Part shown: positions 11,255 to 45,885 of the stretch, in pieces
Layout: each line of letters begins with the position of its first letter
Numbering within the stretch: position 1 is the stretch's first letter
Assembly: GCA_029717555.1 (NCBI GenBank)
Contig: JAMDHS010000102.1
Location: 1 to 64,000 of the forward strand
DNA length: 64,000 bases
Direction: 5' to 3'
Origin: Peribolospora baueri
Lineage: Eukaryota
The notes under the pieces: generated by a model
Seen by the model: only the letters and a program-made list of their open reading frames with translations
The model's database searches: none
What the model was told of the DNA's origin: nothing
Position numbers and translations under genes: made by a program

Positions 11255-14200
11255 TCAAATGAATTCGAAGAGAGGACCGATACGGCGCCGTCCCACCCGA
11301 GCGCAAGGAGAGCTGTCGATCGACGATGAGCTCATGAGGCTACCCGTGCTCGTTGACCGATTGTGCAAGCCCCTCGTGTCCGATTGAACATATCCAGATC
11401 CGATCGCTGACGGTGAGGATCCCCAGACATGGTTGTAGTGGGAAGAGAGCAATGGAGAGCGTCTCGTAATCGCGGATTCAGGAGGTGACTTTGACCGGAT
11501 GGCGAGCGGCGAAGACGCCTTCGCCTTTCGGCAGGGCGACGACAAATCCGGGCTGTACACGGTGGACGACGTGGGCGAGTCCGAGGCCGAGGAGCCGGCG
11601 GCGGCACTCTTTGCCACCAGAGAGTCCGAAGGAGACATACGGAGCCTTGCCGCCGAGGCAGGGGTGAGAATCGAGAAGAGCGAAAGGCGCATCTCCACGT
11701 CGACGTCGAAGAGCTTGTCGCCGATGGAGGGCCGATCGTAGCTTGGACGATCGTCACTCACGTCGCTGTCATATCGGCTGCGACGGCGGTCGGATTCGCC
11801 TAGTGATGCCTCTGAAAAGCCCATCTCAGATCTCCGGTCGGCTGGTGGAAAAGCGATGGAGCCCTCGGACTCGACGCGCGCAAGCATCCTGTCGCCTATT
11901 TCTGTAGCAATATTTTGAGATTCGGCCTTGTCCTTGCATTCTTCTTCGATGGGAAAAGACACCTCGGCATAAGCGGACGCTGGGCGTCTGCTGACTAGTC
12001 GCCGATGGTCCGGGCTGAAGCCAACTGACGGCTGCACGGCAGATTGCGGGCCTCGTCCAAGATCGTCCGGGATCGGCGATCCGCCCCACAGCCTCTTGGG
12101 CCTGGTGTCCGGGGTGACGGGCGGCAGTTGCGACGATACAGAGAGTATGCGTCTGACTGGGCTAGGCGCGGGTCCGCTGATGCTGCTGACGCAGCAGACA
12201 CGGTATGGCCTCGGCAGGGGCGAGGGACTGTCGTCCAAGCCGACGGACACGCTGGTCATCGCGTCGCTGTTCTCCGGTGTGCTCTCCACGTCGTAGATTT
12301 GGATCTCATCCGAGGAGCTACTCTCCTCGTCAGCGATGAAACCGCTTGAGCGACGCGTAGAGGGCTGACCAAAAGGCGGAGAAGATCCGGCAGCGCCGAA
12401 GCACGGCGTGAGAGGACGATAGAGTGGTGCGCCTGACGCCGGGTGCGAATGGGCGACGGGAGGATGATTAGTCACTGGAGGGAACGCAAAGTCCGTTCCG
12501 GCAGAGGATTGAGTCCACTCCGACACGATGGTGTGTAGGTCGTCGGGGCCAGGTTGGGAGGTGAGGGCGCCGTGGAAGAGACCGTGCAGATCGTCAGGGG
12601 CATCGCTCGTACGCGTTTCAGTACGCTGAATCTCGTCCTCCTCGCCCGCACCGTAGCCGGCCGGGAGACCATCGTGCACGGAGCGAGAGTCGGAGAGACG
12701 GTCGACGACGCTGCGCAAGCCGTCCGTCCCCTGCTCGACATCGTCCAAGTTGGTCGAGCTTAAGAACATGGACTCTGAAAGCGTACTGGCGCGGTGGACG
12801 TCAGGCGCTATGGGGCCTTCGGCGTCCCCGTTAGCGAGGCTATCGAGCGCCTCGCTGCTGCTGCCGCTCGTGGTCGTCGTGGCCCCATCAGCGACCGAAG
12901 AACGATATGCGCTCACGTCGCTGTCGCTCATCGACACTGGAAGAGAGAGAAGACTCGTCAAACCGACCTGGTCGGTGACCTGCCGCTCCGGCGTCAAGCG
13001 CAGTCCGAGCTCAGAGATGGCTGGAGACGGGTGTTCTTGCCGTGCCTGTGTCACGTCCAGCGTGAAACCGCTCCGGGGATCCGGCCGGAAGTGGGCCGGC
13101 GGTTGGGCGCGCATGAGGGGAGACGATGTCGACGCGGGTGTCGGCGCAGCCGGCTGAAATGGAGCAAGGGAAGGCTCGTCCTTGCCGGGCATATCTTCAC
13201 CGTCGCTGGCAGGGACAGAGGGCAAGGGGTACCTGGGCGGCGAGGGGGGCGGCGCACTCCAGTCGGCAAGCGCATGTTCCATAAGGCTGTCAAAGTCGGA
13301 CATGGTCGTCTCCGGGTTGAGAGCGTAAAGCGGGCCGATCGAAGGACGATGAAGAATGGAAGAGGAGACGGAGGTGTCGGAGGCCATCGATGTGACCGAG
13401 CCTTTGCCACAAGGGTGTCCGTGTCCGTGTCGCTGGTGTGGCTCCTGGTGCGACTGCCGCTGCTGCCGATGAGATGGGTCACGGCCACGCGTAGGAACAA
13501 ACGTCGGCGAGAGAAGGCTAGGAGAGGGAGGCGACTTGACCGACGCCGCCTCGAGCGTGGAGGGGGGCCGAACGCGGAGAGGGGGCGGCACAGGCTGGGA
13601 TGCGGCCGAAGGGGTGCACTCCTCCGCGGTATACCTGGGAACGGCTTTGCAGTACGAGAGACGCGACCGGCTCGGCACGGCTGTATGGGAGCGAGACGAA
13701 GCAAGGGGATCGGTCAGTGAGCGAGACGAAGCATCGGTCAGTTCAGTCAGTGACAATCCCGGCGGCGGTGAAAGACACCCACGCGTCTGTTCGGCGTCGC
13801 CCGTCCCAAGGTCCCGGGGCCCCAGAGCCGACTCTGGAGTATGCGCGGGGGAGATCGAATCCATGGACGTCCTTTCCCTTCCCGGCCTCATCTTCCCCGT
13901 ACCTCCCTGGGGCTCGTTCTCCTTCAGCCTGTCTGCAGCAGTCCAGCCACTCAGACTGCCGACTCTTAGCTTGGACACGTCGGCCTTGGTACTGAGCGTC
14001 TTCCACCACTTTGCCTTGAAATCAGGAGCGGCGGAGGGAGGGGTGGTCTTCCCGTGTTCGATAACGTCGGGAGGAGGAAGGGCTTCGGAAGAGAGGTACA
14101 CCCACGACGCCAGCCAGTCGCCTCCGTCTTCCGTCGCCTGCGCCGGCGTCGGCGTCTGCGCCTGCGCCTGGCGCTTGCCGGATGAGCCGTAGAGCCGACT

Positions 14201-15902
14201 AAAACGGCGGCCGACGGTATAGAAACGGGTCTGCGACTCTCCCCTCGACCAGGCTGGCTCGGCCTTCTTCTTCCCTCCGCCTCCGTCAGGAGACCCTCCG
14301 CCGGCGGAGGAGGTGCTGAAGCGGGACCTGAGCATCGTCGACGCGCGGCTCATGCTCATGGTCGAGCGACCCATCGAGACGGAAGGGGCCGAGCTTCGCA
14401 AGGCGCCAGCGCCCCGGTCCGGCTCGCGGGGCAAGGGCAAGCCTCGGACGAGCTTGCCCATCTTGTCCGCGAAGTCACCGTCACCATCGCCACCGCCATC
14501 CGCACCTGGGTGCTGAGCGACCGCGGGCGCGAGAACGTTCCTCAAGCTCGGCGGACAATCGGGCAGCTCTCGCATGCGCAGAGTCCGAGTCTGAGCATGA
14601 ACGGCGCGCTTGCGCAGAGTCGGCTCCGACTTTTTCCTGCTCCCCAGGCGGGAGAGACTGCGAAGCGAGGCCAAGGTGCCGAACGGCGATCCGGAACCGG
14701 AACCGGGGCCAGGGCCGGAGCCGCTTCTTCGCTCGCTCTCGCCGACCGCGGCGGGGGCCCGACGGAATAGGCGCAGCGAGCCGGAGCCGGTGCTGAAGCG
14801 AGGGGAGCGAGAAGCTTTGCTGAATGTGTTCGCCTTGTGCGTGTGCGTGTGCGTGGGCTCGGGACAGAAAGGAGGAGAACCGGCGGCGAAAGCTTGGGAG
14901 GAGGCGACGGCGCCTTTAGATCCAGGTGACGGAGACGGCGACGATGAGCCGGGCAAAAGGGCGTGGGCGTGGGTATGGGCGTCCAAAGTCTGTTGGATCG
15001 ACGCGCGCAACGCACGTCGCGGCGGCTGCAGGCCTCGTCCGACAAGGGCGGCAGCACTTTCCATCGAGGCTGCCAAAGCCCCTCTCGGCACGGACAAGTC
15101 GTCTTCATCCGGACGTTCTTCCACCCTGCCACCAGCCATCGTGTCCTTCCTCTTCCACTCCCTTTTAACCTCGCCCTCCGTCTCCGTCCTGTTCGCCATC
15201 TCCATCTCTACCTCCCAGAGCCTCTTAGCCGCATCACTCAAGAACTCGGCACGGGGAGGAAGGGAGGACGACTGGAAGGGGTACTGATGAAAGGTGAGAG
15301 AGGAGGTGCGAGGAGGCGGGGGAGGGAGCGGCTTCGTGTTGCTGCTGAGGTGTTGGATCGGACGAGGAGGCGGGTAGACGACGTGCGGCTCCGGCTCTGG
15401 CTGCAGCGCGGACAAGCTGGAGCCGGGGCCAACGCCGGGGCCGGTCGTTCCACAGCCTGCTGCCATCGGTCGCGCCCCCGCACCGCCCTCAAGGGTGACA
15501 GTGCGCGTGGGTTTGGAGGCAGACCTGGGCGAGGGAGTGGGCGTGAATTGGAAGGTGGGCTCGAGCGCGTGCCTGGCGAGGCGCGGAGAGTTGTGGCCGC
15601 CGAGAACGTGTGCGGCGCGGGTATGACGAGGGATGTGGGTGGTGGCGTCGACGTTAGTTCTGGTATTTACGTTGGTTTTGGTATTGGCGTTGGCGTGGGC
15701 GTGGACGTTGGCGTTGACGTTGGCATCGACGGCGACGGAGCTCAGCGGGACGCGGACGCGCCTGCGTACGATCACGGGTCGCTGCTTCCTGTGCGCCTCG
15801 GCGTCGACGGGCGGCTTGACGTTGTATTCCCGCGCGTCCATCTCGCTCTCCTCGGTGGTGCGCTTGTGCCGGACAGAAGGAGAATGAGAAGAAGAAGGCA
15901 TC
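11255..15902 (-). CDS. Large low-complexity Ser/Pro-rich hypothetical protein (~1550 aa), apparently intronless
   Basis: Uninterrupted 4.7-kb ORF. The first ATG gives MPSSSHSP at ~15902. No recognisable domain. Confidence 0.65.
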
Positions 15903-16917
15903 GCACGGCGGAGACTGGGATGCAGAGGAGAGAAGAAATCAAACGAGCCGAGGCTGGGCTGGGCGGAGGCAAGACGTAGAAGAGGGGCGGAGAGAAGGCG
16001 AAGAAAGCGAAGGAGGTGATCTGGGTGAAAGCGAGGCACCTGTCCTGGCCTGATCTGATCTGGTCGCAGTCTTGAAGCGTCGTCAGGCCGTCAGAGGGTT
16101 ACGGAGATAGGGGGCAGCGAAGGATGAAGGCGTGATAGGCGTGGGTGTCGTTTGTCGTGAATGAGAAGCTGGAGAGCAAAGGTCATGGGGTCATGGGCGT
16201 GCGTGGGTGTCTTTTCTTGAGTTGTCTCGTCTTGTCTCCCTCGTGGTGGGAAGAAGAGAACCGCATACACTCCACTCCTTCCTCTTAACCTCGCCTTGTT
16301 GTCGCTCGAAGCACGCGACGGCCGCGACGCGTCGAAACACGAGGCATGCCTCCTTAACCCCTGACGTGCACGCTCGCTTATCTGCTCCCATCCATTCCAT
16401 TCCCACTTATTCCCTAACCCATCTCATCCCATCCAACCACGTCTCCATCTCGTCCCGCTTCTAGCCCCCTCCACCCGTCCTCGCAGCCAGAACCAGAACG
16501 GAGCGAAAGAAGGACGACGACGCACGGACGGACGGAACGAACGAACGAACAATAAAGAAGCGTAGATCCTCCGCCCACCCGACAATTCCCCGCGGACCTG
16601 ATCAGGACCTGATTCTGATTGATCCGCCCTGACTGACCCGCCCGCTCGCACATACATACACACCATAGTAGGGTTATCACGCGCAGGACCCTAACCCTAA
16701 CCTGCTCGCTCGATCGTGCGCGCTCCTCACCACCATCCACCGCTTCGACGACAGACCGAACACACTTCACACGACCACGACGCATTCCTTCCTCGTTCCC
16801 CTCTCTTCCTTTCACTCCTCCCACTCGCCCTCTTCTCCCGTTCCTCCTCTCCGTCCTCATTCCATTCCATTCCATTCCATTCCATCCATCCATCTGCCAC
16901 TCTCGCGCCCGGCGGCC

Positions 16918-19373
16918 ATGTACGGCCGTCCACCACCCCACCGCGGCTACCCGCCTTACCAACAGCGCCCACCTCCGGGCCCCCCGCCAGGTCCACCGGG
17001 CGCGCCAGGGACGGCGACGGCGACGGGGACAGGAGCACCATGGCCATACCCTCCGCCCGGAGGACAGCCAGGCTACGGCGGTGCACCGAGGGCCGGTATC
17101 GGCGCCCCCGGCCGACCTCCTGCGCCGCCGGGTATGGGAGCGGGCGCCAGCTGGGAGGGAAGCCCTCCACCTCGTGCGCCGCCAGGGGCGATGGCCGGCG
17201 GCAGTGCATCGCCTTACGCCCCCGGCCCGGGTCCGGGTCCGAGTCCGGCGGCGCCAACCCCGAGGGCGGAGGCTTCCACGACGTTGTTCGTCGGGTCCAT
17301 CAGCGCCGGCGTCACCGATATGTGGTTGGAGAGGATATTGCAGGTGCGCGGCTTTCTCTTTGCGTGCGTGCAGTCCTTGCACTCATCGTGATTATTTTTT
17401 CCCTTTGCTCGCTCCTCCTTCAGTCATGCGGTCCGCTTCGCAAGGTCAACCGCGTCAAAGACCTCACGGGCAAGCCCAAGGCATTCGGCTTTGCAGAGTA
17501 CGAGGAGCCAGAGAGCGTCTTGCGCGCCCTCAAAGTCCTCAATGGCGTCGAGGTGCCCAGCTTGGACCCTGGCGGCGGGCAGGCGAAAAAGTTGGTCGTC
17601 AAGGCGGATGAGAAGACGAGGGTGTACTTGGATCAGTACGAGAGTGGGAGGGTGAAGGGCGAGGGCGAGGAGGAACTTGATTCCAAGGCCAGGGAGACGA
17701 TCGAGGACATCTTCAAAGAGATGGTCTCGGGCGCCGACTCGTCCGATGCCAACAAGGACGATCCGGGATACACCGTCCCTGCGCATCTGCGCGACCTCCC
17801 GCCGGAGGAGCTGCCGGAGGAGCAACGCGGGATCGTGCTGTCGGAGATTGCCATGTTCAGGGAGAGGGCGCACAAGAAGGAGCAGGAGAGAAAGAGAAAG
17901 GAGGAGGAGATGGAGAGGGAGAGGGAGAGGGAGTGGGAGATGCGCAGGAAGAGGGAGGACGCCGCTCGCAACGCCCAGGCCGCTTCGCCACCAGCCGATC
18001 GCAGAAGGCCGGCCGCCAATGGTTACGGCCACGGCCACGGCGCGGACAGCCACCTGCCGTACGGCAAGGAACAAAGCTACAACAAGCCCATGTCCTTTGT
18101 CCGAGCTGACGCCGCGGGGGGGGGACCGGTGTCGTCGATCGGCGGCGACGCCAACGCGGTGCTCGATCCGGAGCAGCAGGACGAGGAGGAGGAGAGGAGG
18201 AGGAGAGAAGCCAAGGAGAGGGAAGCCGAGGTCGCTTTGCGGGATGTGAGTCGTGAATGGGTGAATGGACCGTGCTCTTTTTTTCTTCTTCAAGCTCACA
18301 TCTATCTGCCTCGTCTCCATTCGCATCGATCGCAGCGCGAACGCCGATGGGAGGCCCGCGAGCGGTCCCGTCTCGCGGCGATAGAGCGCGAACTGGGGCG
18401 GGAGCGCGACGAAGAGGCGCGGGAGCAGCGGGAGCGACAGAGGCGACTAACCCTGCACGCCCGCTTCGATGACGACGACCCTTCGACGCTGCCCCGCGGA
18501 GCGGACTACACGTTCTACGACGACCGGCTCGCTTGGCGGGAGGTGTACGGGCCGATCCGGGCGAGGGAGAAGGAGGCGGACGAGGCGGACAAGAAGCGGG
18601 AGGAGGAAGAAGTGGAGAAGATCCGGATCGAGTCGGAGCGTTTCCTCGCCGAGCAGGCGGCCGAGATGGAGGCGCTGGCTCAGGCGCAGAGAGATGCTGG
18701 TATGCTCCTCGACGAGGGACAGCCGATCAAGCTGTCGTTCACCGCCAAGGCCGCTGGAGGTGCGGATGGCACCAAGGCTATGGTGGATCACCCGGAAGGC
18801 AAGGTGGCGATGGGCGCAGCGGCCGGGGCAGCAGCAGCGGCGGCGGGGGCAGCAGGTCAAACGGAACATGGTGCGGCCGGCGGTCGACCGGTGCTACTAG
18901 GCGAAGCAGAGGAGGAAGAAGAAGCGCTTCGGAAGAAGCTGCGCGTGTTAGTGCCTTTGGAGTATGGCGACGGATTGACGGACGAGGAGAGGGAGGAAAA
19001 ACGAAAGGACAAAGTGAGGAGGATGTGGGAGAGCGTGCCGGCTCAGGTGGACAAGCTTGCGCTTGTGCCGATTAGATGGGAGTTGGTGGATGAGGTGAGC
19101 CGCGTCTTTGTCTTTCGTGCCCGCTCAATTTCGCGCCCGCTCAACAAATATTTTCCTTTCTGCCAGAACATGATCGACAACAAATTAGCGCCGCTGGCAA
19201 ACGAAAAGATCGTAGAGTACCTGGGCGCGGAGGAAGAAGAGCTGCTCTCGTTCGTCCTCGAGCACGTTCGCGAACGCAAGGGCGCGCTCGAGCTTCGGGA
19301 CGGCCTCGAACCTGTGTTGGCCGACGAGGCGGGGCTGTTCGTCGAGGGCTTTTGGAAGAGGTGAGTGCTGTCA

Positions 19374-21300: not shown

Positions 21301-21903
21301 TCGCGCCGGCCCGGACGGCTGGCTGGCTGGACGGAAGGAAGAATATTGTGTGCGACCCTGAACGAAGCTGCCCTGACGCGCCATTCATCTTTCCATCTTT
21401 CTTTCTTTCGTCCCTTCCATCATCCTCTTTCATCTTCCTTCGACTACCACCATCTTCGTATTCGTAGCCCATCTTTCTTCGTCTCCGTTTCCGTCTTCTC
21501 CATCTCCCTCTCTCCCTCTCCATCTCCATCCCGTCTCTTCTCCATCTCATCCCCCTGTCCTTCTTCCTTCTCCTCCCCCCGACCTAGGCTGGCCTACCCC
21601 TCCCCTCCGACTTACAGCCGCCTTCACCTTCTCTCTCTTGCCCAACACCACACCCCCTCCGCTTCCGGATCGAGACGAGACAGACGTAACCCCTTCTGCG
21701 CATACCCGCCCTTTTCCGGCGCACTCCCTCCTCGCAAACGTCTCACGCCCCTTTCGCCATCGCCATCACCCGTCCCTTTTCACCTCCCATTCGCTTTCGT
21801 CGTCCACCCGTCTTGCCCCGTCCCTCCCCGCGCCGCCTGGTCTCGTCAACGACGACATATCTCCTTCTCCCACCTCGCCCCCCTTTCCTAGCACCTCGCC
21901 AAC

Positions 21904-24900
21904 ATGCCTCTCTTCGGCCACGATCGTTCGTCCTCCAGCGCACGCCGCGAGTCCTACTACCCACCCCCTTCCCCCGTCTACGAGCTCGAGACGCCCGGCG
22001 GCACCCGCATCCCCTACGACCCCGATGCCCAAATCGATCCCGACCTCCAGCTCCGCGTCGTCCGCACCGCCGCCGCCTCCATCGCAGAGTCCCATCGGTC
22101 CGATGCCCGCAGGGAGGACCGCAAGGCGAGGAGGAAGCGCAAGCAGCAGGAGAGAGAGGAGAGGATGAAGAACGGAGAGCAACGCATGAGCCTTTTCCGC
22201 GGCATGAGCGTCAAGAGGATGCTCAGCACCCGCAAGGGCAAGGAGAGGGACACCTCCTTCCTCGGCGCCCTCACCGAGTCCGATGAGTATCCAGGTCCAC
22301 ACTCGACGCCCGCCGACGGCCCCTCCTCCCTCGTCGCCGACGCCCCCTATCAAGCCGTGCCCGACACCGCCGCCGCCCGGGCTCCCTACGCCGAGTCGGA
22401 CGCCGCCTCGTCCGATACCGGCCACGATCACCAACCTCCAGCCGGGCCGCCCGGCGGCGGAGGCACGACAACATTGGGCAAAAAGGCGAAAAAGGTCAAC
22501 CCAGACCTGCTCAAGCGACGAAACATCTACCTCAACGTCCCTCTTCCTCCCCATGACCTCGACCCCAAGGGAGACCCCAAGATGCGCTACCCTCGCAACA
22601 AGGTCCGCACCAGCAAGTACACCCCGCTCACCTTCTTGCCCAAGAACCTCTACGAGCAGTTCCACCGCGTCGCCAATATCTACTTCCTCGCCCTCGTCAT
22701 CCTCCAAGTCTTCTCCATCTTCGGCGCCGCCACGCCCCAGATCGCCATGCTCCCCCTCGTCGCCATCCTCGGCATCACCGCCCTCAAGGATGGCGTCGAG
22801 GACTACCGCCGACACGCGATCGACGACGGCGTCAACAACTCGGCCGTCACCAGGCTCGGCGACTGGCAAAACGTCAACCGGCCCAAGGACCGTCGGTCGT
22901 TGTTCGAAAAGATTTTTGGTCTCAACCCGCCGAACCGAGTGTCCAAGGGTGTTCGCAAGCTCAGGGAGAAGGAGGCCAGCACCGGTTCTGGCCTCACCCT
23001 CGGCCCGTCCATATCCTCCTCCGCCTCCAACTTTAGCCTCGTCAAGGACCACGCGGCGAACAGCTCGACGTACTCGGTCGACTACCCGCTCGAGGAGCTC
23101 CAGTCCGTCACCGACTCGCAGTCCTTCCACGGCCGCTCCTCCGCCGCCAGTGCCGCCAGCAGCTCCGCCCACCCTCTCGAGTCCCGTGACCGTGCGGTGC
23201 TCCAGAACATGCGCGAAGGAGTCTCGATCAACGGCTCCTTCGTCCCATCCACCGTCGGCTCTCGGTTCTCTCCCACGGGCGTCGTCGATTACGACCGCCG
23301 CACGCCCGGCACGGCCCGGTGGGAGCGGACGCTCTGGAAAAAGCTCGAGGTCGGCGATGTCGTCCTGCTGCGCGAGGACGAGCAGGTGCCGGCCGACATT
23401 GTCGTCCTCTCCACCTCGGACCCGGACGGCGCCTGCTTCGTGGAGACGAAAAACTTGGACGGCGAGACGAACCTGAAACCGCGCAAGTGCCTCAAGGCCA
23501 CCAGCTGCCTACGCTCCGAAGAAGACATCGAGCACGCCCGCTTCTACATCGACTCGGAGCCCCCGCACGCCAACCTGTATTCCTACCAGGCCCTCCTCAA
23601 ATATTCTTCTTCTTCTCCTCGCGCCTCCGCGGGCAGCGGGCGCAAAGACGACGACGAGTTTGACCAAGTCGAGCCGGTGACCATCAACGAGCTCCTCCTC
23701 CGCGGCTGCGCGCTCCGCAACACCGAGTGGGTCATCGGCCTGGTCGTGTTCACCGGCTCGAACACCAAGATCATGCTCAACCAGGGCGACACGCCGAGTA
23801 AGAGGAGCAAGATCGAAAAGGAGACCAACTTTAACGTGATCATGAACTTTGTCATCCTCCTCGCCATGTGTGTCGCCGCGGCCATTGCCGGTGGCTTTTA
23901 CGACAGCCGGGCCGACACGTCGGCGAGCTTTTACGAGCCGGACACGAACCCGTCGACGAGCAACTTTGCCAATGCGGTCGTCATCTTCGCCTCGTGCCTC
24001 ATCCTCTTCCAGAACATCGTCCCCATCTCGCTCTACATCTCCATCGAGATCGTAAAGACCATCCAGGCCTACTTCATCTACCAGGACATTGACATGTACT
24101 ACGCCCCCCTCGACCATCCGTGCGTGCCCAAGACGTGGAACATTTCCGATGATCTTGGCCAGATCGAGTATGTCTTTTCCGACAAGACCGGCACGCTCAC
24201 CCAGAACATTATGGAGTTTAAGAAATGCTCCATTCACGGAGGTGAGCCGGACGGCCCACGTTTCGACGATGACGGCGATGATGATGACGATGATGACGCT
24301 CTGCTGACCATCACCTTGCCCACCGTCTTTTTTTTGCATTCCCCCCGGTCGCGTAGTCGCCTACGGCGAAGGCATCACCGAGGCCATGGTCGGAGCTGCC
24401 AAGCGCGAAGGCAAGGACGTGGGCAACTTTAACCCCGCGGAGCAGGAAGAGCAGCTCAACCGGTTCAAGGAGGAGATGGTGGAGACGATGACCAGGTCGT
24501 ACAAGAACAGATACTTCCGACAGGACAAGCTAACCCTCATCGCCCCTTCGCTCGCCCACGACCTCAGCCCCTCTGCCACGGACACGCACCAGCGCCGTCG
24601 GATCATCGACTTTTGGCGCGCCCTCGCCCTCTGCCACACCGCCCTCACCGACCGGCCCGACTCGGGACGGCCGTTCGAGCTCGACTACAAGGCCGAGTCA
24701 CCCGACGAGGTCGCGCTCGTCGCCGCCGCGAGGGACGTTGGCTTTGTCTTTGTCAGCCGGACCAACAACGTGGTCGAGATCGAGGTTATGGGCCAGCCGG
24801 AGCGGTACACGCCGCTCCGGGTGCTCGAGTTTAACAGCACGCGCAAACGCATGTCCGTCATCGTCCGCGAACCCGACGGTCGCATCCTTATGGTCTGCAA

Positions 24901-27750
24901 GGGCGCCGACTCGGTCATCTACGAGCGCCTCGCCGACGACCACGACGTCGAGCTCAAGCAGTCCACCCAGCGCGACCTCGAGGCGTTCGCCAACGCCGGC
25001 CTGCGTACGCTGTGCATCGCGCGCAGGTACCTCTCCGAGGAGGAGTACGCCGACTGGGCGCGCATCCACGACGCGGCGTGCGCCGCGATCGACGACCGCG
25101 AGGACGAGATCGACCGCGCGAACGAGTTGGTCGAGCACGATCTCACCCTCCTCGGCGCGACGGCGCTCGAGGACAAGCTCCAAGTGGGCGTGCCGGACGC
25201 GATCGAGATGCTCCACCGGGCCGGCATCAAGCTCTGGATCCTCACTGGCGACAAGCTCCAGACGGCCATCGAGATCGGCTTCAGCTGCAACCTGCTGACG
25301 AACGACATGGAGATCATGATCATCTCCGCTGATTCCGAGGCCGCTGCACGCGCCCAGATCGAGGCGGCGTGTGACAAGATCGCTGCGGCCGGCCGGCCGG
25401 TCGTCGTCGAGGTCAACGAGGGCGGGCTCAAAGGCAAGGCGGGGAAGAAGAAAGTGCAGCGGCCGGCGCCGGCGTCGTCCTCGTCGTCGTCCGAAAAGGG
25501 TCCCTCGGCCGGCTTCGCCGTCGTCATCGATGGCGAGACCCTCCGCTACGCCCTCGACGCTGCACTCAAGCCGCTCTTCCTCGCGCTCACGACGCAGTGC
25601 GAAACGGTGGTCTGTTGCCGCGTGTCGCCGGCGCAGAAGGCGTTGACGGTCAACCTGGTCAAGGAGGGCAAGGGGGCCATGACGCTCGCCATCGGCGACG
25701 GCGCCAATGACGTCGCCATGATCCAGGAAGCCCACGTCGGCGTTGGCATCGCCGGCCTGGAGGGAGCCCAGGCGTCCATGTCGGCAGACTACGCCGTCGG
25801 TCAATTCCGCTACCTCAGCAAGCTCCTCCTCGTCCACGGACATTGGTCCTACGTGCGCATTGCCGAGATGCACTCCAACTTTTTTTACAAGAACATCATT
25901 TGGACGTTTACCATGTTTTGGTATCAGTTCTACTGCAGGTGAGAGCCTGGCCTGCGCTTCATGGTCACGTATGTGCCTGCCATTCGTTCGCTGACGCGCT
26001 CCCTCCCTTCGCGTCTTCTTCTCAGTTACGACGCAACCTATATCTACGACTATACCTACATCATGCTCTTCAACCTCATCTTCACCTCCCTCCCCGTCAT
26101 CTTGCTCGGCGCCTTGGACCAGGACCTGAGCCCTCGAGCGATCTTTGCTTGCCCGCAGATCTACAAGCGAGGCATCCTCGGCCTCGAATACACGCGCACA
26201 AAGTTCTGGTGGGCCGTCTTTGACGCCCTCTACCAGTCCGCCGTCGCCTTCTTCGTCCCCTTTTTGGTCATCTACATCCTCGGCGGTGGGCACAACCAGG
26301 ACGGGTACGACCTCAACTCGATTTGGGACTTTGGTACCACCATCGCCGCCGGCGCCATCATCACCGCCAACCTCTATGTCGGGTGAGCGAGCCGATCGGT
26401 CGGTCGGCCCTTCCGCTGCCGCCGCCGAATGACCCCCTTCGCTGATCATCCCTTCTGCGCCGCTCCCACCTGCTTCGTTTTCCAGTCTCAACACCAAGTA
26501 CTGGTCTGTCCTCATCTGGATCGTCCAAGCTTTCTCTATCCTCTCCTACTTTGTTTGGACTGCGATGTAAGTCGTCGCCACCCTCCTTCCCATTTCTCCT
26601 CCGCCGTCGCTCACCGCCGCTTACCGTCCATCTCCTCTCCCTTGTCGGCAGCTACTCGGCCTTCCCGACGTTCACCATGCAAAACGTGGTCAAGTACGTC
26701 TTCCCGTCGATCGAGTACTGGTTCTCCATCTTCCTCGTAGTCGTCATCTGTCTTGGACCTCGGTATACTGTCAAGGCCTTCAACGCCTCCTTTTTCCCCA
26801 CCGAGGTCGACAGGGTCCGCGAGGCCTGGCTCAAGGGTGACCTCAAGGAGCCCTCGATGCGCGATCCCTTCGACTCGGCCCGCGAAGGCCTTCGCAAGCC
26901 CGGTAGCCGCTCTGGTACTCCCTATCGTGACGACGCCGACGTCTATTCGGAAGTCGATCTCGAAGCGCACACCTACCCGCCACGATCCAGGCTTCATCGT
27001 GCGGCCTCGATCGACCGGGCACCGCCACCGCCGAGCGTGTCCACGACGTTGGTCGACGACTACAACCCCAGCGCATGGGACCTGCCCACTCAGAGGCGGC
27101 CTGACGCGCCCTCTGCCTTTGTCTACGGCGATCGGCCATACGATGGCGGCCCGGACGACGGTCCGGAGATGACGCAGCGCGAGCCGGGCGCGGCCATGCC
27201 CTACTACAGTTCCTCCTCCTCCTCCTCCTCCTCCTCGGGCCGGCCAGCGACGGGCGCAAGCGTAGGCAGCAGGCTAGCGGCGACGCCGGGACAGGGTTCC
27301 GAGCGCCGTCTATCCCCGTCTCCTCAGGCCGCCGCCGGTCTTCCTCAGATCCACATCCAGCGAGCCAGCGGCGCGTCGTTTGATTACGAGGGCCGCAGCA
27401 GCGTGTCCCACAGCTCTGGCGGCGCTGGCGCCATTGCCGCCGGGTCGTCGTCCTACATCGCCCAAGAATCAGCACCGCCCTCCATGACGGCTCACGCCCG
27501 TCGTAATCCCTTCGCGGCACCGCGAGACGACGACAGCTTCGATCAGGCGTTCGATGAGGCTTTCGGAGACCCGGCACGACGGCAACCGGACGCTGCATAT
27601 GGATCCGGTTTCGCGCAGGGTCATGAGCGAGCACACGTCGTCGACCTCACTGACGCGTCCTACCACACGGCCCACGGCGTCGGTGCGGACGAGCGGCGGC
27701 CATGGGACGACGAGGAAGCGGACGAGGACGCTTGGGCTCATGCACGATGA
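21904..27750 (+). CDS. DNF1: P4-type phospholipid-translocating ATPase (Dnf1/Dnf2-like flippase); multi-exon
   Basis: NKVRTSKYTPLTFLPKNLYEQF, ETKNLDGETNLK, PISLY, DKTGTLTQN (~24181), AESPDE, KGADS, LTGDK, CCRVSPAQKA, GDGANDVAMIQEA. Confidence 0.95.
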
Positions 27751-39149: not shown

Positions 39150-41840
39150 TGTGCAGCGTATCGTTGAGAATGGAGATTCGATGGCACAGGTGAGCCAACG
39201 GAAATGCGCCGACCACTTCGGTTCGTAAGACGCGTCCATCATCGAATTCACTTCGCTCGTGCAACTCGTTCAAAAACATCCCAATCAAAAAAAGATTCTT
39301 TCTTCCCGCGGTCGTCGTCGCATGCAAAGTCGTCTCGGCTGCCTATAAGGTGGGCGGGCGATCGTCGTCCACGTAATGGAAATGATGAGCGCCATATTCG
39401 CTTACAACCCGTTCGCGCCGTGTTCGACCGGCATCAGTTATTTCGAGAGCAGTCGCAGCAAGATGCCCAGATGCTTGACCTTGGCAATAGCATCTCGCAG
39501 TTGGAGGGATGGATCGACGAAGCACAGCATCTGGCCATGACGATACCCCTCAAACGCGCCTTGAAACTCATGACGGAGAAGATGTTTGAATGTGCGAGGT
39601 TCATAAACGACTGGGAACAGTCCACCTCTAAATGTGAGGTTTTCGGGAAAGAACCAAGTATGCATAGCCTGCTGACGTCGGATGTTCGTATTTTGTATTG
39701 ATTCTGGTAGGGTCTTTCTTTCGCACCGCGTTGAGCCCTCAGGCCCGCAATAAGATTTCCGGACTGAATGCAGTTTTCGCAGAGATCGGAAACGATTTTC
39801 GCACAGCCGTCCACATAAACACCGAGGCTGGTGATACCAAGATGTCGCATCTTGGCCAGACGCGCCCTCTATTGGGTACGTTGTTCTGTCGCCCAGGGCT
39901 CTCTTGAAGACTGGCCCGTGCCTAGTTTTTGCAATACTTCTGTGCTGATCTCTTGCTTTCGAAATCTCGCCTCTATATCACAGGAATCATCGATAAACTC
40001 AATCGCTCACCCGAGGCCAACTACGACAGCAGCCGGACGTGCCTCAAGGAGACTCGGGTCGAAATCTTAGATCAGGTCCAGAAGTGGGTCAGGGATCGTG
40101 ATGGCAAGCAAATCTTTTGGATCACCGGCCTCGCTGGCTCCGGCAAATCAACGATCGCCAACACGGTTGCCAAGGCCATCGACGACGGCGACGACGACCA
40201 TATCCTCGGTGCCAACTTCTTTTCAATGGCAACGCCGTCGATCGCAGCAATGCGCAGCTAGTCTTCAGCACCATCGCTTTCCGACTGGCACACGGAGATA
40301 AGATGAGTCGATTGGCGAGCGGAATCGTGTCAGCCCTGGAGAAAAATCCGGAAACTGGTCGCGGACCTATCGCCACCCAGTTTGACAAGCTCCTGGCCAC
40401 GCCTCTTAGTGCCGTATCGTCTTCCGACCTCATGCCCGTCGTCGTCGTCGTCCTTGACGCATTGGACGAGTGCACGGGACTTCTTCGCGATTTCCTCGAC
40501 GTCCTAGAGGAGAGGGTTCCATCGGTCCCAAATGTCTTCAAGCTCTTTATCACCTGTCGACCCGAGGATGAAATCATGGCGGCCACCGTCCGTGCTTTGG
40601 GCCGTTCTGTCCATCATCACGTCCTCGACACGGGTGATTCGTTAACGAAACGTGACATCGACCTTTTCGTCAACAATCGGATGAACGATCTAAACAGGCG
40701 CTGGTTGCGAGGCATCGACTGGCCCGGTAAGGCTGACCAAGATGCCCTCGTCCAACGATCACATGGCCTTTCACGAGTTCCTTCGTCACTCCGATGGCCG
40801 TCGGCCCGAGGACAAACTCAAATTGTTACTCCAGGACGGGCCGGAAAGCTCTTCTGCCGAGGCAGCTCTCGATCGGTTGTATCGAACGGTTCTTCACCGG
40901 ATCGTCGACAACCAGACGCCTTTCCTGCTCTCGGCTTATCAGCAAATCGTGGGGGCGATCGTCACGCTTCGTCAATCCCTCAGCCAAGAGGCCATTGAAT
41001 ATCTTCTACGTTCGCGCACGTCGGACGAGTCTACGGCGCGTCTTGACTACCGGGCGGTCGTCTCTCTACTTGGATCTGTCTTGCATGTTCTTGATCACCG
41101 TATGACCAAGTTCATGTCATTCACCCTTCATTCATCAACTTCCTCACCCATGAGGCTCGCTGTCAAGACAAGAGGCTCTTTATCAAACACAACGGAGCAC
41201 AATCGAAGCCTCGTCATCTCTTGTCTTAAAGTCATTGATCTCCTTCGGCGCGATATCTGCGAGATTAGCGACCCCAGCATGAGCTATCTCGAAATCGAAG
41301 GATTCGACACGCGTTAAGGCTCACATACCGGCTCACCTTCTATACGCTTGCGTCTTCTGGGCAGAACATCTGTTGCAAGTGCCAGTAGAAGATCACGACG
41401 TGTTGTCAAGTCATTCTTCTTCGACCGTCTCTTCTGGATTGAGGCTACAAGCCTGCTCGACGCCATCAACTACCGCGTTCTAGGCTTAAGAGCTTTCGAC
41501 CAGTCGTTGCGTTCAGTGAAATTAGTATCGGACTGGATCAAGGTGAGCTACATCACGATGAGCCTCTCTCCTAATGACTACTATCATGCACTGACTTGGC
41601 TCGCGATCATCCAGAAGCACGGCGCATATGACGATGGCCTCCAAGAGCTCGTTTCAGATGCTGGCCACTTCATGAACGAGTACCGGGTCCCGATCTGTAC
41701 AAACGGCCTACACATATACATCTCCGCCCTCAGCTTCACACCGCAGGAAACGTTGCTTTATTGACATTTGCCCCACGATATGAGCAAAGCATCCTGGTAT
41801 TGCGTGGGGCACCATCTCGCTGGTCCACATCCTTTACGAC
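39150..41840 (+). pseudogene. NACHT NLR pseudogene (HET-E-like), paralog of the gene at 1-1947, truncated before the C-terminal repeat domain
   Basis: CLKETRVEILDQVQKW..IFWITGLAGSGKSTIANTVA (Walker A 40127-40153), VVVVLDALDEC (Walker B ~40440-40473), LFITCRPE, LHIYISALSFTP. Frameshifts near 40225, 40770 and 41100, and a stop at 41315-41317. Confidence 0.9.
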
Positions 41841-42130
41841 AGTGAGGGCGTCGAGGGGTTCGACGACTTCCTCGATGAGTTCGTGCGCTTCATGCTAGCC
41901 TCTGCCGCCGGTCGTGCCTTCTCCCTCGAGCTGAGCAACGACAGGACCGGCAGACTGGTGAGGGAGTTTGAGCTGCCCGAGCATCGCTCCAGCGCCCTTC
42001 TCCCTCACCAGTCTGCCGGGCCTGTCGTTGCTCAGCTCGAGGGAGAAGGCACGACCGGTGGCAGAGGCTAGCATGAAGCGCACGAACTCATCGAGGAAGT
42101 CGTCGAACCCCTCGACGCCCTCACTGTCGT
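41836..42130. repeat. Long near-perfect inverted repeat (hairpin): 131-bp arms, 33-nt loop
   Basis: 41836-41966 is the reverse complement of 42000-42130 with 2 mismatches by manual comparison. Confidence 0.97.
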
Positions 42131-42792
42131 TCGGTGTGTATCCGTAGGCCTGCAGTCTTCCTTCTCGGTAACCACAACGGCAGCCTTCAGAACGATCCCG
42201 ACGCCGAGAAATTATATTCAAGGTTTTAAGGGCCCGGCTCTATCACCGGAAATCTTCACGGATGATCCCGTAGGAGCTGACAAGGTACCTGTTTGCAATT
42301 TCTTCAGTTGATCGTCGACATGGCGGGACCTTACCTACTAATTCGTGCATAATTCGATTAGAGGAACAACCAGTCGCAAACGGAGTGGAGCGCGGACCCG
42401 CGCCCGTTTCCAGTGGCAAACGGACAATGCGATCTCAGGTAGACCTAAAGAGAGCGGAAAGAGCTGGTAGAGGCGTCTTCGAAGCCGATCGTTGTGGTGC
42501 GGACACAGGCAAAAGATGGCCTTCGCGGGTCAGTGCAGGAGGCGAAGGGGAAGAGCTCGAAGGGAGAGCTGACCAGTTCCTCCTGGAGGCGAGCTGCGGC
42601 GCCCGAAATGGCCCGACTTGTCACGACATCTTATCTTATCGGATGACGGTTTGCCGAACGAACCTTCAGTCGGGCTCAAATTTCAAATTCAAATGCGGCC
42701 GCTCATCTCGACTTCCTTCTCGCGAGCGAGCGTCGTCGTCGTCGTCGTCCGCTTCGCCCGTAGACAGGGCGCCCTCGTGCTTCTCGACGCCA

Positions 42793-44205
42793 ATGAGACC
42801 TCCTGTCACGCCGCATCTCTCTCTGTCCATTTCGGCCGCCAGACAGACTTGGTTCTCTCTTCGATATCTGCCCAGCCCCATCGCAGCCCAGACCCGCCGC
42901 ATGACCGTCGACGCGACCAGCGACGCTGGCCAGCTGACGCGAGATGCGCTTTCTGAAGCGAACGCCGTCCACTCGTACAAACCGTTTCGCCCCGTCAGTC
43001 AGGTCCCCTCGAGTGAAGCCGATGGGAACGAGTCTGGCAGTTCTCGTGAAGACGACTGGGTGGACCAGTTGGAGCTCGATACGGCCATCTCGATGACGAC
43101 GTCCATCCTTCCTCGAAAACTGAAGATATTGGTGCTGTACGGAAGCCTGCGCGAAAGGTGAGCGAGCGAGCGCAGCACAGCGTCGGACGGAGGGGCCAGC
43201 GACAGACCGTCGCGCCAAATCAGCGTGGACGTGGGCGATGAGCCTGGCGCACCTCTGTGGCGTGAGCAGAAGCGACGGCGGGGGTAGGAAAAGAAGTTCT
43301 GACAGGACGCTCCTCTTGCCCGGCCGTGCCTACGTCCTCCGCCATTGCAGGTCGTACTCTCGTCTCATGGCGTATGAGGCCAGCCGAATTCTGGACCGAA
43401 TGGGCGTCGACGTTCGCGTTTTCGACCCCGCCGGCCTGCCGGTGAAGGACGACGTGAACCACGGGCATCCGAAGGTGCAAGAGCTGCGCAGCCTCAGCGG
43501 ATGGTCAGACGGGCACTTTTGGTGCAGTCCAGAGCAGCACGGCAACTTGACCGCCGTCTTCAAGAACCAAAGTGAGCCGCGAGGTCCCTTCTTTCCGCTC
43601 TGCGGGTCTTGCTCGAGAAGCGCGTTCGGAACTGCGCTCACGGTCCTCCTCGTTCATCGACGTCAGTCGACTGGATCCCTCTGTCGACCGGTTCAGTCCG
43701 CCCAACCCAAGGGCGCACCCTCGGTATCGCTCAAGTCAACGGCGGCTCGCAATCGTTCAACACCGTCAACTCACTCCGGATCCTCGGACGATGGATGCGC
43801 ATGTTCACGATCCCCAATCAGGTGGGCCGCGGCGGGCCCTCTGGAGGCCATCGGACGAACTGTCCGTCCAGCGTCCGCGTTCAGGTCCGCCAGTACGCTC
43901 GCCTCAACGTCTCTCGCGCTGACGGCGCCTTCTGTCCATCCATCTTTTTTCTTCCCCAGTCATCGCTACCCAAGGCCTGGACGCAGTTCACCCCGGAAGG
44001 ACGGCTGATGCCGAGCGACAACAGGGATAGGTTGGTGGATGTGTGCGAGGAGCTGGTCAAAGTCACCATCCTCTTGCTCCCGCACGTCCAGCTCTTAGGG
44101 GACCGATTCAGCGAGCGCAGCGAAAAGCACCTTCATGGTCGGCTGCGTTCTCAAGCGGAGAAGGAGGCGGCGCGCCCCGGCAAGGACGGAGGGAAGTCTG
44201 GATGA
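42793..44205 (+). CDS. arsH: ArsH, NADPH-dependent FMN reductase / organoarsenical oxidase; 3 introns
   Basis: [49 protein letters not shown]|x[53 protein letters not shown]. Confidence 0.95.
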
Positions 44206-44284: not shown

Positions 44285-44635
44285 CCTCCTACTACTGCTC
44301 CCTGGGAGGAAGGCTTACGACGGTGGTCCGCTCGTCGCGTTCGGTGAGTGAACGAATTCGTCGCCGGTCATGATCAGTCGGCGACGGTATCAACGAGAGC
44401 ACTCACGCAAGCCGACATCAGCGTCGCCCTCGCAGCCAGCTCCGCGGCCGCCTGCTCGTCCGCCGACTTTGTCCTCATATCGCGCTAGGCGCCGTTGGTC
44501 AGCTTGCCCACTCTGTTTCGCCTCTCTCGCGCGACGCAGAACAAGGTCCTGTCCAACTTTGTCGGGGCCGTCGTCTTCAACGCCATTTGCGTCCCTCTCA
44601 CCGCTGGCGTCGGCTTCGAGGATGGAGTCAAGCAT
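44285..44635 (+). pseudogene. Eroded C-terminal fragment of a P1B heavy-metal-transporting ATPase
   Basis: LLP..KAY..PLVAF|VGDGIN (44377-44394), then a frameshift, then ALTQADISVALAASSAAACSSADFVLISR* (in-frame stop) ..LFRLSRATQNKVLSNFVGAVVFNAICVPLTAGVG. This is the hinge and following transmembrane motif of Cu/Cd ATPases. Confidence 0.8.
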
Positions 44636-45885
44636 GTTCTCGCCCGGGAGGAAGGCGACCCGAGCGGCGACCAACGTTCTGGAGGCGTTGACGGTGCCCA
44701 CGTAAACCATCTCCCCGACCTTTTTTTTTCCCACAAGCTTGGACTCTCCCGTAAGCGAAGATTCGTCGAACTCGCCAACGGGCCCGTCCCTCGCTCGTCC
44801 GCTCGCGTCGTCCAAGGCCCGGACGGAGTCCTCGGGGCTTGACGCGAGCACAGAGTCGAGAGGAGGGGGACGCTCCAGGCGGGATGAGGACGTGGTCTGC
44901 GATGTATAAGAGATCGATGGAGACCTCCTCGCCGCGACCGTCTCTGCCGAGAACAATGCCCGTCCGCGGGCGCAAGTCGCCGAGCTTCATAGGGCGGACG
45001 CGCGGCGCGAAGCACAGAGCAAGCGCAAACGGTCGCACGGCCGCGGGCAAACCGTCGGAACCTACCATTTCGCCGGCGTACGTCTGCCGCCCATCGTCGA
45101 ATGACGCATTTGTGGGAAGTGAACGAGATCGCGCGGCGACTCGAGAGTCGCTTTACACTATACGAGGCCAAGTGTGCGGAGACTGGGCGTCTCTAATACA
45201 CCACAGGCTTGCAGTTCGTCGAGGTGGCCGTCTCGAGAAAGCCGTCGGAGGTGGCGCGCGTCCTTTTATTTTAATTTATTTTTTTCTCCTCCCCCGCAAC
45301 GGCGGGCTCACCGCCGCCGTGCCGTTTCTAGGCCGCCAACGCCTGCGCGCGCGTTCGTTCGACTGGCGTGGTCGAACGAGTCCAATTTTCTCCAAAAATG
45401 TGCGTGGCAACCCGGTGCCGGCCATCCGACTCGAGCAATGTCGGTCGGTCTGCGAGGCCGACCGACCAACGAAGCCGTGGGAGACCGCCTTTTTCTTCTC
45501 GAGAGCGACGACGAGCGCGAGCGGTTCAAGGGGGACGGAGGAAGAGCCAAAAAACTCGTCGTGACATCGCCGCCGCCATCGCCGTCGACCGTATCCGTAT
45601 CCGTATTCGCCCGGTCCCAATCCCCGTCCCGATCCACGACGACGCAGACAGACAGACGGAGGTCAACGGCGTCGCGCCCAAAGCTTTACTTAACACGAAC
45701 TGGTATTCCCGGCGCCCAAGACAAGGCAAGGCGTGGCGTGGCGTGGCGACCCGACCTTGGCCGTGGACGCCCCTTTCTTCCCCAGCAGACAGAGCGGCAG
45801 CGTGACTGAATCTACACAAGTGGAGGTGATCTCGAGATGGACAGATGAAGAGAAACGAAAAGAGGGAGGAAGAGCTAAAACGAGC

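What the first reader, a model, noticed from the sequence alone, without database searches (positions are those of the whole stretch)
41836..42130. Near-perfect 131-bp hairpin replaces the sensor domain of an NLR pseudogene
Seen: two 131-bp arms with only 2 mismatches and a 33-nt loop. The hairpin starts immediately after ..ILVLRGAPSRWSTSFTT, where HET-E-like NLRs normally begin their WD40 repeats. The arms read as a coding-like fragment (EGVEGFDDFLDEFVRFMLAS..) that does not look like WD40 sequence. The arms are nearly identical while the NLR upstream is heavily decayed, so the hairpin is recent or actively maintained. Inference: read-through from the pseudogene would give long dsRNA, a source of siRNA/milRNA able to target the donor gene of the arm and possibly NLR paralogs. 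Alternatively it is the scar of a fold-back or template-switch event, perhaps aided by microhomology at ACGACAGTGAGG.
Basis: partly seen in the sequence, partly recalled or inferred. Interest (0 to 1): 0.75.

Follow-up and report, generated by a model that had tools for sequence, protein, structure and literature searches.

The report
Fold-back duplication scar truncating an NLR
A real, near-perfect 131-bp inverted repeat sits where a decayed immune-type (NLR) gene should begin its WD40 domain, and it looks like the scar of a recent fold-back DNA repair or replication accident rather than a proven small-RNA gene.

Summary
The arms are 41836-41966 and 42000-42130: 131 nt, 2 mismatches, 33-nt spacer. 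It is the only long inverted repeat in the 64-kb window.

It follows a frameshifted NACHT NLR pseudogene at the point where the closest full-length relatives start their WD40 propeller.

Contigs of four public DNA runs from one study add three points:
- The arm and spacer belong to a coding-like sequence, here called D. D has about two further linear, non-hairpin copies that run on past both the spacer and the right arm. This argues against a MITE.
- D's own continuation after the spacer is CTCCCT, the reverse complement of the arm end AGGGAG. That is a 6-nt inverted microhomology with a 33-nt spacer, as in fold-back priming or template switching.
- In a roughly 2% diverged relative the NLR continues into a WD40-like start instead of the left arm, yet the right arm and its flank are present. 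The duplication therefore looks lineage-specific and recent.

Best reading: a deletion plus inverted-duplication scar. siRNA production is untested, because no RNA run, genome or long reads were available. The hairpin centre is not covered by exact contigs, so an artefact is not fully excluded. Interest is modest.

The parts
40013..41832 (+). NACHT (NPHP3_N) NLR pseudogene, P-loop to the last pre-WD40 segment ('..LVLRGAPSRWSTS')
   Evidence: Pfam NPHP3_N is split over two frames, 39926-40261 and 40102-40998. tblastn matches of Trametes NACHT-WD40 NLRs P0006-P0008 lie in frames 2, 1, 2, 3 between 40013 and 41515. There is an in-frame stop at 41315-41317. The end matches P0006 'RIGREKTWNTT' and P0008 'RVGSENAWSTT' just before their WD40 blades (by eye).
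41833..41835 (.). Left junction: TTT, assignable neither to the NLR of organism B nor to the D sequence
   Evidence: Organism B contigs follow the window to 41832 and then diverge (tables 7 and 8). The inverted repeat starts at 41836. No clear microhomology is visible.
41836..41966 (+). Left arm: a D-family fragment in sense orientation, open frame DSEGVEGFDDFLDEFVRFMLASAAGRAFSLELSNDRTGRLVRE
   Evidence: The organism A 20.6-kb contig runs without a mismatch from the NLR 30 nt into this arm, to 41865.
41961..41966 (+). AGGGAG, inner end of the arm: one half of the 6-nt inverted microhomology
   Evidence: Read. It pairs with 42000-42005.
41967..41999 (+). 33-nt spacer (loop). It is D-family sequence in sense orientation, contiguous with the left arm
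   Evidence: A paralog contig covers 41913-42005 with 3 differences in all four runs. The open frame continues as FELPEHRSSALLP.
42000..42005 (+). CTCCCT: both D's own continuation after the spacer and the first 6 nt of the right arm. This is the switch point of the fold-back
   Evidence: The paralog contig matches the window up to 42005 and then diverges (loose end 'behind 42005' in 4 of 4 runs).
42000..42130 (-). Right arm: a D-family fragment in antisense orientation
   Evidence: In organism B a 164-nt (X3) and a 151-nt (X4) contig cover 42001-42164 and 42014-42164 and overlap the flank contig that starts at 42135.
42131..42164 (-). 34 nt of further D-family sequence beyond the right arm, with no partner on the left
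   Evidence: A paralog contig at about twice base depth covers 42112-42164 with 2 differences and diverges beyond 42164. The minus-strand frame continues as EGRLQAYGYTPN.
42900..44200 (+). Downstream neighbour: NADPH-dependent FMN reductase gene. It is not part of the feature and marks the right unique flank (approximate bounds)
   Evidence: Pfam FMN_red E 2.7e-10 on ORF 43124-44008. Unique contigs of all 4 runs cover from 42112 or 42135 to 43700.

Best explanation
The hairpin is the DNA scar of one fold-back (template-switch) rearrangement in the lineage of organism A. By default it is a neutral by-product and not a gene.

A short stretch of a multi-copy coding sequence, D, lay next to the 3' part of an NLR. 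D naturally contains AGGGAG, then 33 nt, then CTCCCT. After a break or a stalled fork, a 3' end finishing in ..CTCCCT annealed to AGGGAG 33 nt upstream on the same or the nascent strand. It was then extended, copying the preceding 131 nt backwards. The other end was joined without clear homology to the NLR at 41832-41835, just where its WD40 domain began.

The net result is loss of the WD40 region and of whatever lay behind it, and gain of a 131-bp inverted duplicate around a 33-nt spacer.

Shown:
- the repeat itself;
- the two outer junctions in contigs of organism A;
- linear D paralogs;
- the 6-nt inverted microhomology;
- a different left junction in organism B.

Inferred:
- the order of events;
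- which arm is the copy;
- that the hairpin centre is physically as assembled.
For: 1. The structure is real in the sequence and far beyond chance.
2. Both outer junctions stand in contigs of runs X1 and X2 at single-copy depth, without mismatch. A 20.6-kb contig reaches 41865, and a 2243-nt contig runs on from 42112.
3. Inner junction: a contig present in 4 of 4 runs matches 41913-42005 (arm end, whole spacer and CTCCCT) and then continues with other sequence. D's natural continuation therefore supplies exactly the 6 nt that are also the reverse complement of the arm end. A blunt junction would give 6 or more such matches with a chance of about 0.0002 (my arithmetic, 1/4^6).
4. Linear paralogs also run on beyond 42164. 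The open frame continues through arm, spacer and both paralog extensions (by eye..LQGHLYLVTP before and VRFFEDDAPP after), with gene-like codon-position GC.
5. Organism B (about 2.0% substitutions in the NLR, 22 in 1082 nt; 2.1% in the right flank, 33 in 1566 nt) leaves the window after 41832 into a WD40-like start, yet has 42001-42164 joined to the same right flank.
6. Summed depth of the arm segment shared by all copies is about 4.3 times base in A (499 against 115) and about 2.8 times in B (233 against 83), one copy more in A. The tool warns that this depth is not a copy number.
7. The arms differ by 1.5% (2 of 131), less than the A-B divergence. At 42059, B carries the left-arm state, so the right arm of A mutated after the event.
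8. Precedent: in yeast, wild-type inverted duplications after a double-strand break used a 5-bp inverted repeat with a 35-bp spacer (PMC10622511, passages read).
Against: - The centre of the hairpin is not confirmed by the runs. In X1 and X2 the only contig over 41966 carries A instead of the window's G, and depth at 42059-42070 is 0. No contig shown bridges 42005/42006. This may come from contig simplification, but it leaves the fold-back junction unverified.
- All four runs are contigs, not reads, and come from one study. X1 and X2 may be the sample the window was assembled from, so they are not independent.
- What organism B has between 41832 and 42001 is unknown. An older fold-back followed by a deletion in A fits as well. 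In that version D is the NLR's own C-terminal part and the palindrome predates the A-B split.
- D has no recognisable family, so 'coding sequence' rests on frame and composition only.
- The paralog has A at the 41966 position, so the microhomology is 5 of 6 there. A 1x contig with G exists in B only.
Confidence: 0.65

Rival explanations
1. A young hairpin-RNA (hpRNA) gene. The hairpin is transcribed, by read-through from the NLR pseudogene promoter or from its own, and Dicer cuts the 131-bp dsRNA into siRNAs. These silence the D paralogs, which are about 95-97% identical to the arms. This would be a consequence of the fold-back event and does not exclude it.
For: The predicted RNA stem is near-perfect. 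The arms match expressed-looking, coding-like paralogs closely: 4 differences in 87 nt, 3 in 93 and 2 in 53. The hairpin lies downstream of a former gene on the same strand. Template switching and inverted duplication are documented routes to new hairpin RNA genes (PMC10710096, abstract read; PMC3237417, search listing only).
Against: There is no evidence of transcription, small RNAs or an RNAi machinery. The upstream gene is a multiply frameshifted pseudogene whose promoter activity is unknown. Rfam gives only sub-threshold generic miRNA-hairpin hits: the best is 49.3 bits against a gathering score of 84, and both strands score alike. There is no sign of conservation, since the left junction is absent from the nearest relative. 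The two arm mismatches show no compensatory maintenance.
Confidence: 0.12
2. An assembly or library artefact, for example an amplification chimera or a palindromic chimeric read. In this case the left D fragment and the right D fragment are not adjacent in the organism.
For: No exact contig covers the hairpin centre in the two best holder runs. At 41966 only a variant contig is present, and depth is 0 at 42059-42070. The arms lie in a repeat of about 4 copies, where assemblers err. Inverted chimeras with short microhomology are a known product of displacement amplification (recalled, not checked here).
Against: A k-mer graph cannot join sequences through a 6-nt overlap, so the 42005/42006 junction must have stood in reads. 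Traversing one repeat twice would give identical arms, yet the arms differ at 2 sites, and both differ from the paralog contigs. Both outer junctions are at full single-copy depth in X1 and X2. The spacer carries G at 41966, the local variant also seen at 1x in organism B, and not the paralog's A.
Confidence: 0.12
3. A MITE or foldback transposon inserted behind the NLR.
For: The arm sequence occurs more than twice in the genome, with depth about 4 times base. The long terminal-inverted-repeat appearance also fits.
Against: The extra copies are not hairpins. They continue past the spacer (beyond 42005) and past the right arm (beyond 42164) with other, open-frame sequence. D-derived sequence extends 34 nt beyond the right arm only, so the arm ends are not element ends. 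No target-site duplication is visible: '..catccttt' on the left against 'tcggtgtg..' on the right. The arms have the codon-position GC of a gene. No copy lies elsewhere in the 64-kb window.
Confidence: 0.03

Closest known systems
Fold-back inversions (inverted duplications) by foldback priming at short inverted repeats near a double-strand break (yeast; PMC10622511, passages read; related titles)
   Same: An inverted duplication centred on a short natural inverted repeat with its spacer kept as the loop. Here that is 6 bp with 33 nt, against 5 bp with 35 bp in wild-type yeast clones. A second junction resolves the other end.
   Different: The yeast and cancer events duplicate kilobases to whole chromosome arms and pass through dicentrics. 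Here only 131 bp remains duplicated, the event is fixed in a natural lineage, and it comes with a deletion of a gene's C-terminal domain. The break itself is inferred.
Template-switch mutations, four-point model (PMC5453318, search listing; PMC10710096, abstract and introduction read)
   Same: One replication event that writes a reverse-complement copy of nearby sequence and creates a perfect stem in a single step. The return point has microhomology.
   Different: Described template-switch mutations are mostly tens of bases and local. Here the copied stretch is about 165-170 nt, and the first switch skips an unknown and probably long ancestral interval, namely the WD40 region.
Inverted-duplication model of new MIRNA/hpRNA genes from their target genes (PMC3237417, search listing only; Drosophila hpRNA and budding-yeast palindromic siRNA loci, recalled)
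   Same: The arms are an inverted duplicate of a coding sequence that still has near-identical copies elsewhere. This is the expected first stage of such a gene.
   Different: No transcription, small RNAs or RNAi genes are shown. A 131-bp perfect stem would give heterogeneous siRNAs, not a miRNA-like product.
Fungal NACHT-WD40 NLRs of the HET-E/NWD type (closest found: Trametes proteins P0006-P0008, about 31% identity)
   Same: An NPHP3_N/NACHT module and the following helical region up to the conserved 'W-[NS]-T-[TS]' segment before the propeller.
   Different: At least 3 frameshifts and an in-frame stop. No WD40 repeat is left in the window: tblastn with three full-length relatives finds nothing beyond 41515.

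Membership tests
Fold-back / template-switch inverted duplication | Two inverted copies of one sequence around a short spacer | tested here: met
   Arms of 131 nt, 98% complementary, 33-nt spacer.
Fold-back / template-switch inverted duplication | The progenitor sequence carries a short inverted microhomology flanking the future spacer | tested here: met
   The linear paralog contig matches through the spacer to CTCCCT (42005) and then diverges, in 4 of 4 runs. CTCCCT is the reverse complement of arm end AGGGAG. Caveat: the paralog has A at 41966, giving 5 of 6. A G variant is seen at 1x in organism B.
Fold-back / template-switch inverted duplication | An unduplicated state exists in a close relative | tested here: inconclusive
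   Organism B lacks the NLR-to-arm junction and shows about 3 rather than about 4 arm copies by summed depth. Its sequence between 41832 and 42001 was not seen.
Fold-back / template-switch inverted duplication | Single molecules span arm-spacer-arm | not testable with these tools
   Only k=31-type contigs were available.
MITE / foldback transposon | Target-site duplication at the ends of the inverted repeats | tested here: not met
   The flanks differ. The family sequence runs 34 nt beyond the right arm.
MITE / foldback transposon | Several copies of the whole hairpin unit | tested here: not met
   The extra copies diverge from the hairpin after 42005 and after 42164. There are none in the window. 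The whole genome was not searchable.
hpRNA / endo-siRNA or milRNA locus | The transcript can form a long dsRNA stem | tested here: met
   -320.4 kcal/mol, z -28.8.
hpRNA / endo-siRNA or milRNA locus | The locus is transcribed and yields Dicer-sized small RNAs | not testable with these tools
   No RNA holder is listed.
hpRNA / endo-siRNA or milRNA locus | The genome encodes Dicer and Argonaute | not testable with these tools
   No genome is held. None was found among the 38 of the window's 104 long ORFs that were scanned.
Rfam miRNA families (mir-3937, MIR533 and others) | Score at or above the family's gathering threshold | tested here: not met
   Best hit 49.3 bits against 84. Both strands score alike, so these are generic hairpin hits.
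NACHT-WD40 NLR | NACHT/NPHP3_N NTPase domain | tested here: met
   PF24883, E 2.5e-8 and 7.8e-10 on two frames.
NACHT-WD40 NLR | C-terminal WD40 propeller and an intact reading frame | tested here: not met
   No WD40 match in the window behind 41515. The frames run 2, 1, 2, 3, and there is a stop at 41315-41317.
WD40 repeat (identity of the arm sequence D) | Match to a WD40 or beta-propeller profile | tested here: not met
   Pfam at E up to 10 gives 0 families for P0001 and P0002. The only link is the short motif GRLVREFELPE, shared with the repeats of WD40 protein P0004.

The most novel reading that the evidence does not exclude
A fold-back accident has just created a hairpin-RNA gene in a fungus. 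It would be transcribed from the remains of an NLR gene. Its 131-bp stem would yield siRNAs against the about 95-97% identical D paralogs, which may themselves be the C-terminal sensor regions of sister NLRs. That would be a natural, datable first step of RNAi-based control of NLR-family genes in fungi, parallel to miRNA control of NLRs in plants.
Probability: 0.08. Interest if true: 0.75.

Novelty: new member of a known kind. Interest (0 to 1): 0.3.

Why it matters
Taken as a scar, this is a clean natural example of a mechanism known mainly from yeast genetics and cancer genomes. The progenitor microhomology, both junctions and a near-ancestral relative can all be identified. It shows how an NLR can lose its sensor domain in one step. 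It also gives a rough date, because the arms are less diverged than the two sister lineages. If the hairpin were expressed, it would be a rare case of a hairpin-RNA locus caught at birth. None of this changes current understanding unless expression is shown.

Tried and rejected
- Whole-genome search for donor copies: no genome is held.
- RNA evidence: no RNA holder is listed among the 4 runs found. This says nothing about expression.
- Identity of the arm peptide:
  - The word-based search among longer proteins gave 0 hits from 113 candidates.
  - The exhaustive HMMER search of 1.84 billion representatives gave 3 hits, all weak and driven by repeats in the targets (7.9e-8 to 2.9e-6). The WD40 protein P0004 shares only GRLVREFELPE.
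  - The protein atlas gave no usable hit.
  - Pfam at E up to 10 gave 0 families.
  - The metagenome scan gave 1 locus, L001. It is a bacterial contig where the match lies in a non-coding frame of an Ig-like repeat gene, so I rejected it as chance.
  - A plasmid-collection blastn gave no match. That collection is irrelevant to a eukaryote.
- The NLR middle part (40694-41317) against longer proteins gave 0 hits at 1e-5.
- A bacterial promoter and terminator scan found nothing and is not applicable to a eukaryote.
- Rfam miRNA hits were rejected as generic hairpin scores.
- RIP as the source of the arm mismatches was rejected. One mismatch is a CpG transition and the other a transversion (by eye).
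- The parts of the hairpin without exact contig cover in X1 and X2 (around 41966 and 42059-42070) are not counted as absence.
Full report
**Observation**

The inverted repeat is as described. The arms are 41836-41966 and 42000-42130: 131 nt, 98% complementary, 33 nt apart. Read, the two mismatches are 41907(G)/42059(T) and 41946(A)/42020(G).

- As RNA the region folds at -320.4 kcal/mol, against -132.1 +/- 6.5 for shuffles (z -28.8).
- As DNA it folds at -198, against -57.7 +/- 4.1 kcal/mol (z -34.2).
- It is the only substantial inverted repeat in the 64-kb window. The one other pair is a 35-nt, 80% low-complexity match.
- blastn and tblastx of 41700-42300 against the window find no further copy.

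**Context**

The window looks like an ordinary eukaryotic, probably fungal, gene neighbourhood. It holds a P4-ATPase, Sen54, phosphomannose isomerase, SPC12 and a beta-lactamase-like gene. This rests on a Pfam scan of 38 of the 104 ORFs of 170 aa or more.

Upstream of the hairpin lies an NLR.

- NPHP3_N/NACHT (PF24883) is split between ORF 39926-40261 (E 2.5e-8) and ORF 40102-40998 (E 7.8e-10), which lie in different frames.
- The closest full-length relatives found are three Trametes NACHT+WD40 proteins at about 31% identity.
- Their tblastn matches run through frames 2, 1, 2, 3 between 40013 and 41515. That means at least three frameshifts.
- There is also an in-frame stop at 41315-41317. 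I see by eye a further shift near 41760. The gene is a pseudogene.

The window's last NLR segment, 'LVLRGAPSRWSTS' (ending at 41832), corresponds by eye to 'VQLRIGREKTWNTT' in P0006 and 'VDLRVGSENAWSTT' in P0008. Both of these are followed directly by the first WD40 blade. No WD40 match exists in the window behind 41515.

Downstream, from about 42900, lies an FMN-reductase gene.

**What the public runs add**

Four DNA runs of one study hold the stretch. X1 and X2 (organism A) hold 0.89 of the sampled words, and X3 and X4 (organism B) hold 0.41 and 0.39. All are contigs, not reads. X1 and X2 may be the window's own source. Laid on 40300-43700, they show the following.

1. In A, a 20.6-kb contig runs without mismatch to 41865, which is 30 nt into the left arm. 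A 2243-nt contig runs without mismatch from 42112 onward. Both outer junctions therefore exist at single-copy depth.
2. In all four runs a short contig at about 2 to 2.4 times base depth matches 41913-42005 with 3 differences. That stretch is the arm end, the whole spacer and CTCCCT. The contig then continues for 79 nt with other sequence.
3. In A another short contig at about 2 times base depth matches 42112-42164 with 2 differences, and diverges beyond 42164.
4. In B the NLR contig follows the window to 41832 and then continues for about 100 nt with other sequence. By eye this reads IAVMQGHADI in the NLR frame, a WD40-type start.
5. In B a contig at about 3 times base depth covers 42001-42164 (X3) or 42014-42164 (X4). 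It overlaps the unique flank contig that starts at 42135.
6. A and B differ by about 2.0% (22 of 1082) in the NLR and 2.1% (33 of 1566) in the flank.

**Reading of these facts**

The arm and spacer are part of a sequence family that I call D. D has about two further linear copies in both organisms.

- In sense orientation D reads, by eye from the loose ends..LQGHLYLVTP / EGRLQAYGYTPN / DSEGVEGFDDF..GRLVRE / FELPEHRSSALLP / VRFFEDDAPP... This is one open frame throughout.
- The codon-position GC of the arm frame (0.80/0.67/0.44) matches that of real genes in the window (0.75/0.60/0.49).
- The window therefore holds two overlapping D fragments in opposite orientation. The left one is D from the arm start to the spacer plus 6 nt (41836-42005). 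The right one is the reverse complement of D from 34 nt before the arm to the arm end (42000-42164).
- The 6 nt shared by both, CTCCCT (42000-42005), are D's own continuation after the spacer. They are also the reverse complement of the arm end AGGGAG (41961-41966).
- A natural 6-bp inverted repeat with a 33-nt spacer, used as the turning point, is the signature of foldback priming or an intra-strand template switch. A blunt join would give 6 or more matching bases only about once in 4000 cases.
- In yeast, wild-type inverted duplications induced by a break used a 5-bp inverted repeat with a 35-bp spacer (PMC10622511, passages read).
- The left junction (41833-41835, TTT) shows no clear microhomology and looks like end joining.

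**Age**

- The arms differ at 2 of 131 positions (1.5%), below the A-B divergence.
- At 42059, B carries the state of A's left arm, so A's right arm changed after the duplication.
- Summed depth of the arm segment common to all copies is about 4.3 times base in A and about 2.8 times in B. That is one arm more in A, with the tool's caveat that this depth is not a copy number.
- Together with the different left junction in B, this points to an event in A's lineage after the split.
- An alternative I cannot exclude is that D is the NLR's own C-terminal region, that the fold-back is older and shared with B, and that A only deleted the stretch between 41832 and the arm. Both versions are the same kind of event.

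**Weak points**

- In X1 and X2 no contig covers 41966 with the window's G. Only the paralog's A is there.
- Depth is 0 at 42059-42070.
- No listed piece bridges 42005/42006.
- Contig building drops minor paths, and a hairpin loop is such a path, so this does not show absence. The centre of the palindrome is nonetheless unverified.

Against an artefact:

- A 6-nt overlap cannot create a k-mer-graph join.
- The arms differ from each other and from the paralogs.
- The spacer carries the local G variant, which is also present at 1x in B.

I put an artefact at about 0.12.

**Rivals**

MITE or foldback element. I reject this reading. The extra copies are linear and run on beyond the hairpin. Family sequence extends 34 nt beyond one arm only. 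There is no target-site duplication, and the arms have coding-like composition.

Functional hpRNA or siRNA source. The stem would be an excellent Dicer substrate, and near-identical paralogs exist as potential targets. However, there is no RNA run, no genome to check for RNAi genes and no conservation. The Rfam hits are only sub-threshold generic hairpin scores on both strands. Template switching and inverted duplication are published routes to new hairpin genes (PMC10710096, abstract and introduction read; PMC5453318 and PMC3237417, listings only). The idea is therefore legitimate but untested, and I put it at about 0.1.

**What D is remains open**

D has no Pfam family and no homolog in the word-based search. 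The exhaustive search gave only three weak, repeat-driven hits. One of them is a WD40-repeat protein that shares the motif GRLVREFELPE. The LQGH in the paralog's upstream extension and this motif hint at a divergent propeller-type repeat, possibly from sister NLRs. This is a lead and not a result.

**Verdict**

This is a new instance of a known kind of rearrangement and is of modest interest. Interest would rise only if expression and small RNAs are found.

Noticed in passing
window 11-169 (- strand): A second NLR-like fragment at the very start of the window. P0006 residues 40-110 and P0007 residues 234-293 match here by tblastn (E 0.002 and 1.8e-4).
   Followed up: no
window 41320-41439: The conserved NLR motif region (..HIPAHLLYACVFWAEHL..) has summed contig depth 5 to 8 times base in all four runs. 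Diverged contigs (12 differences in 65 nt) show a multi-copy NLR family in both organisms. Organism B also holds a 6.7-kb paralog contig with replaced segments.
   Followed up: partly
window 41309, 41384-41428, 41761: Organism B carries small insertions (CG, CC, T, C, TATGAGC, CTC, A) at or near the places where the window's NLR changes frame. B's copy may therefore be less decayed, or differently decayed (table 4).
   Followed up: no
window 11258-16090 (- strand): An open frame of 1611 aa with no Pfam family at E up to 1e-5. The region has high GC, 0.64-0.67.
   Followed up: no
window 21892-27747 (+ strand): A phospholipid-translocating P4-ATPase (flippase) gene spread over three long ORFs, presumably exons. 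A separate E1-E2 ATPase fragment lies on the minus strand at 44393-44986.
   Followed up: no
window 17895-17929 / 21504-21538: A 35-nt purine-rich/pyrimidine-rich inverted pair, 80% complementary, 3.6 kb apart. It is low-complexity and probably chance.
   Followed up: no
L001 243-380: A metagenome contig matched the arm peptide only through a non-coding frame of a bacterial Ig-like repeat gene. This is a chance hit.
   Followed up: yes
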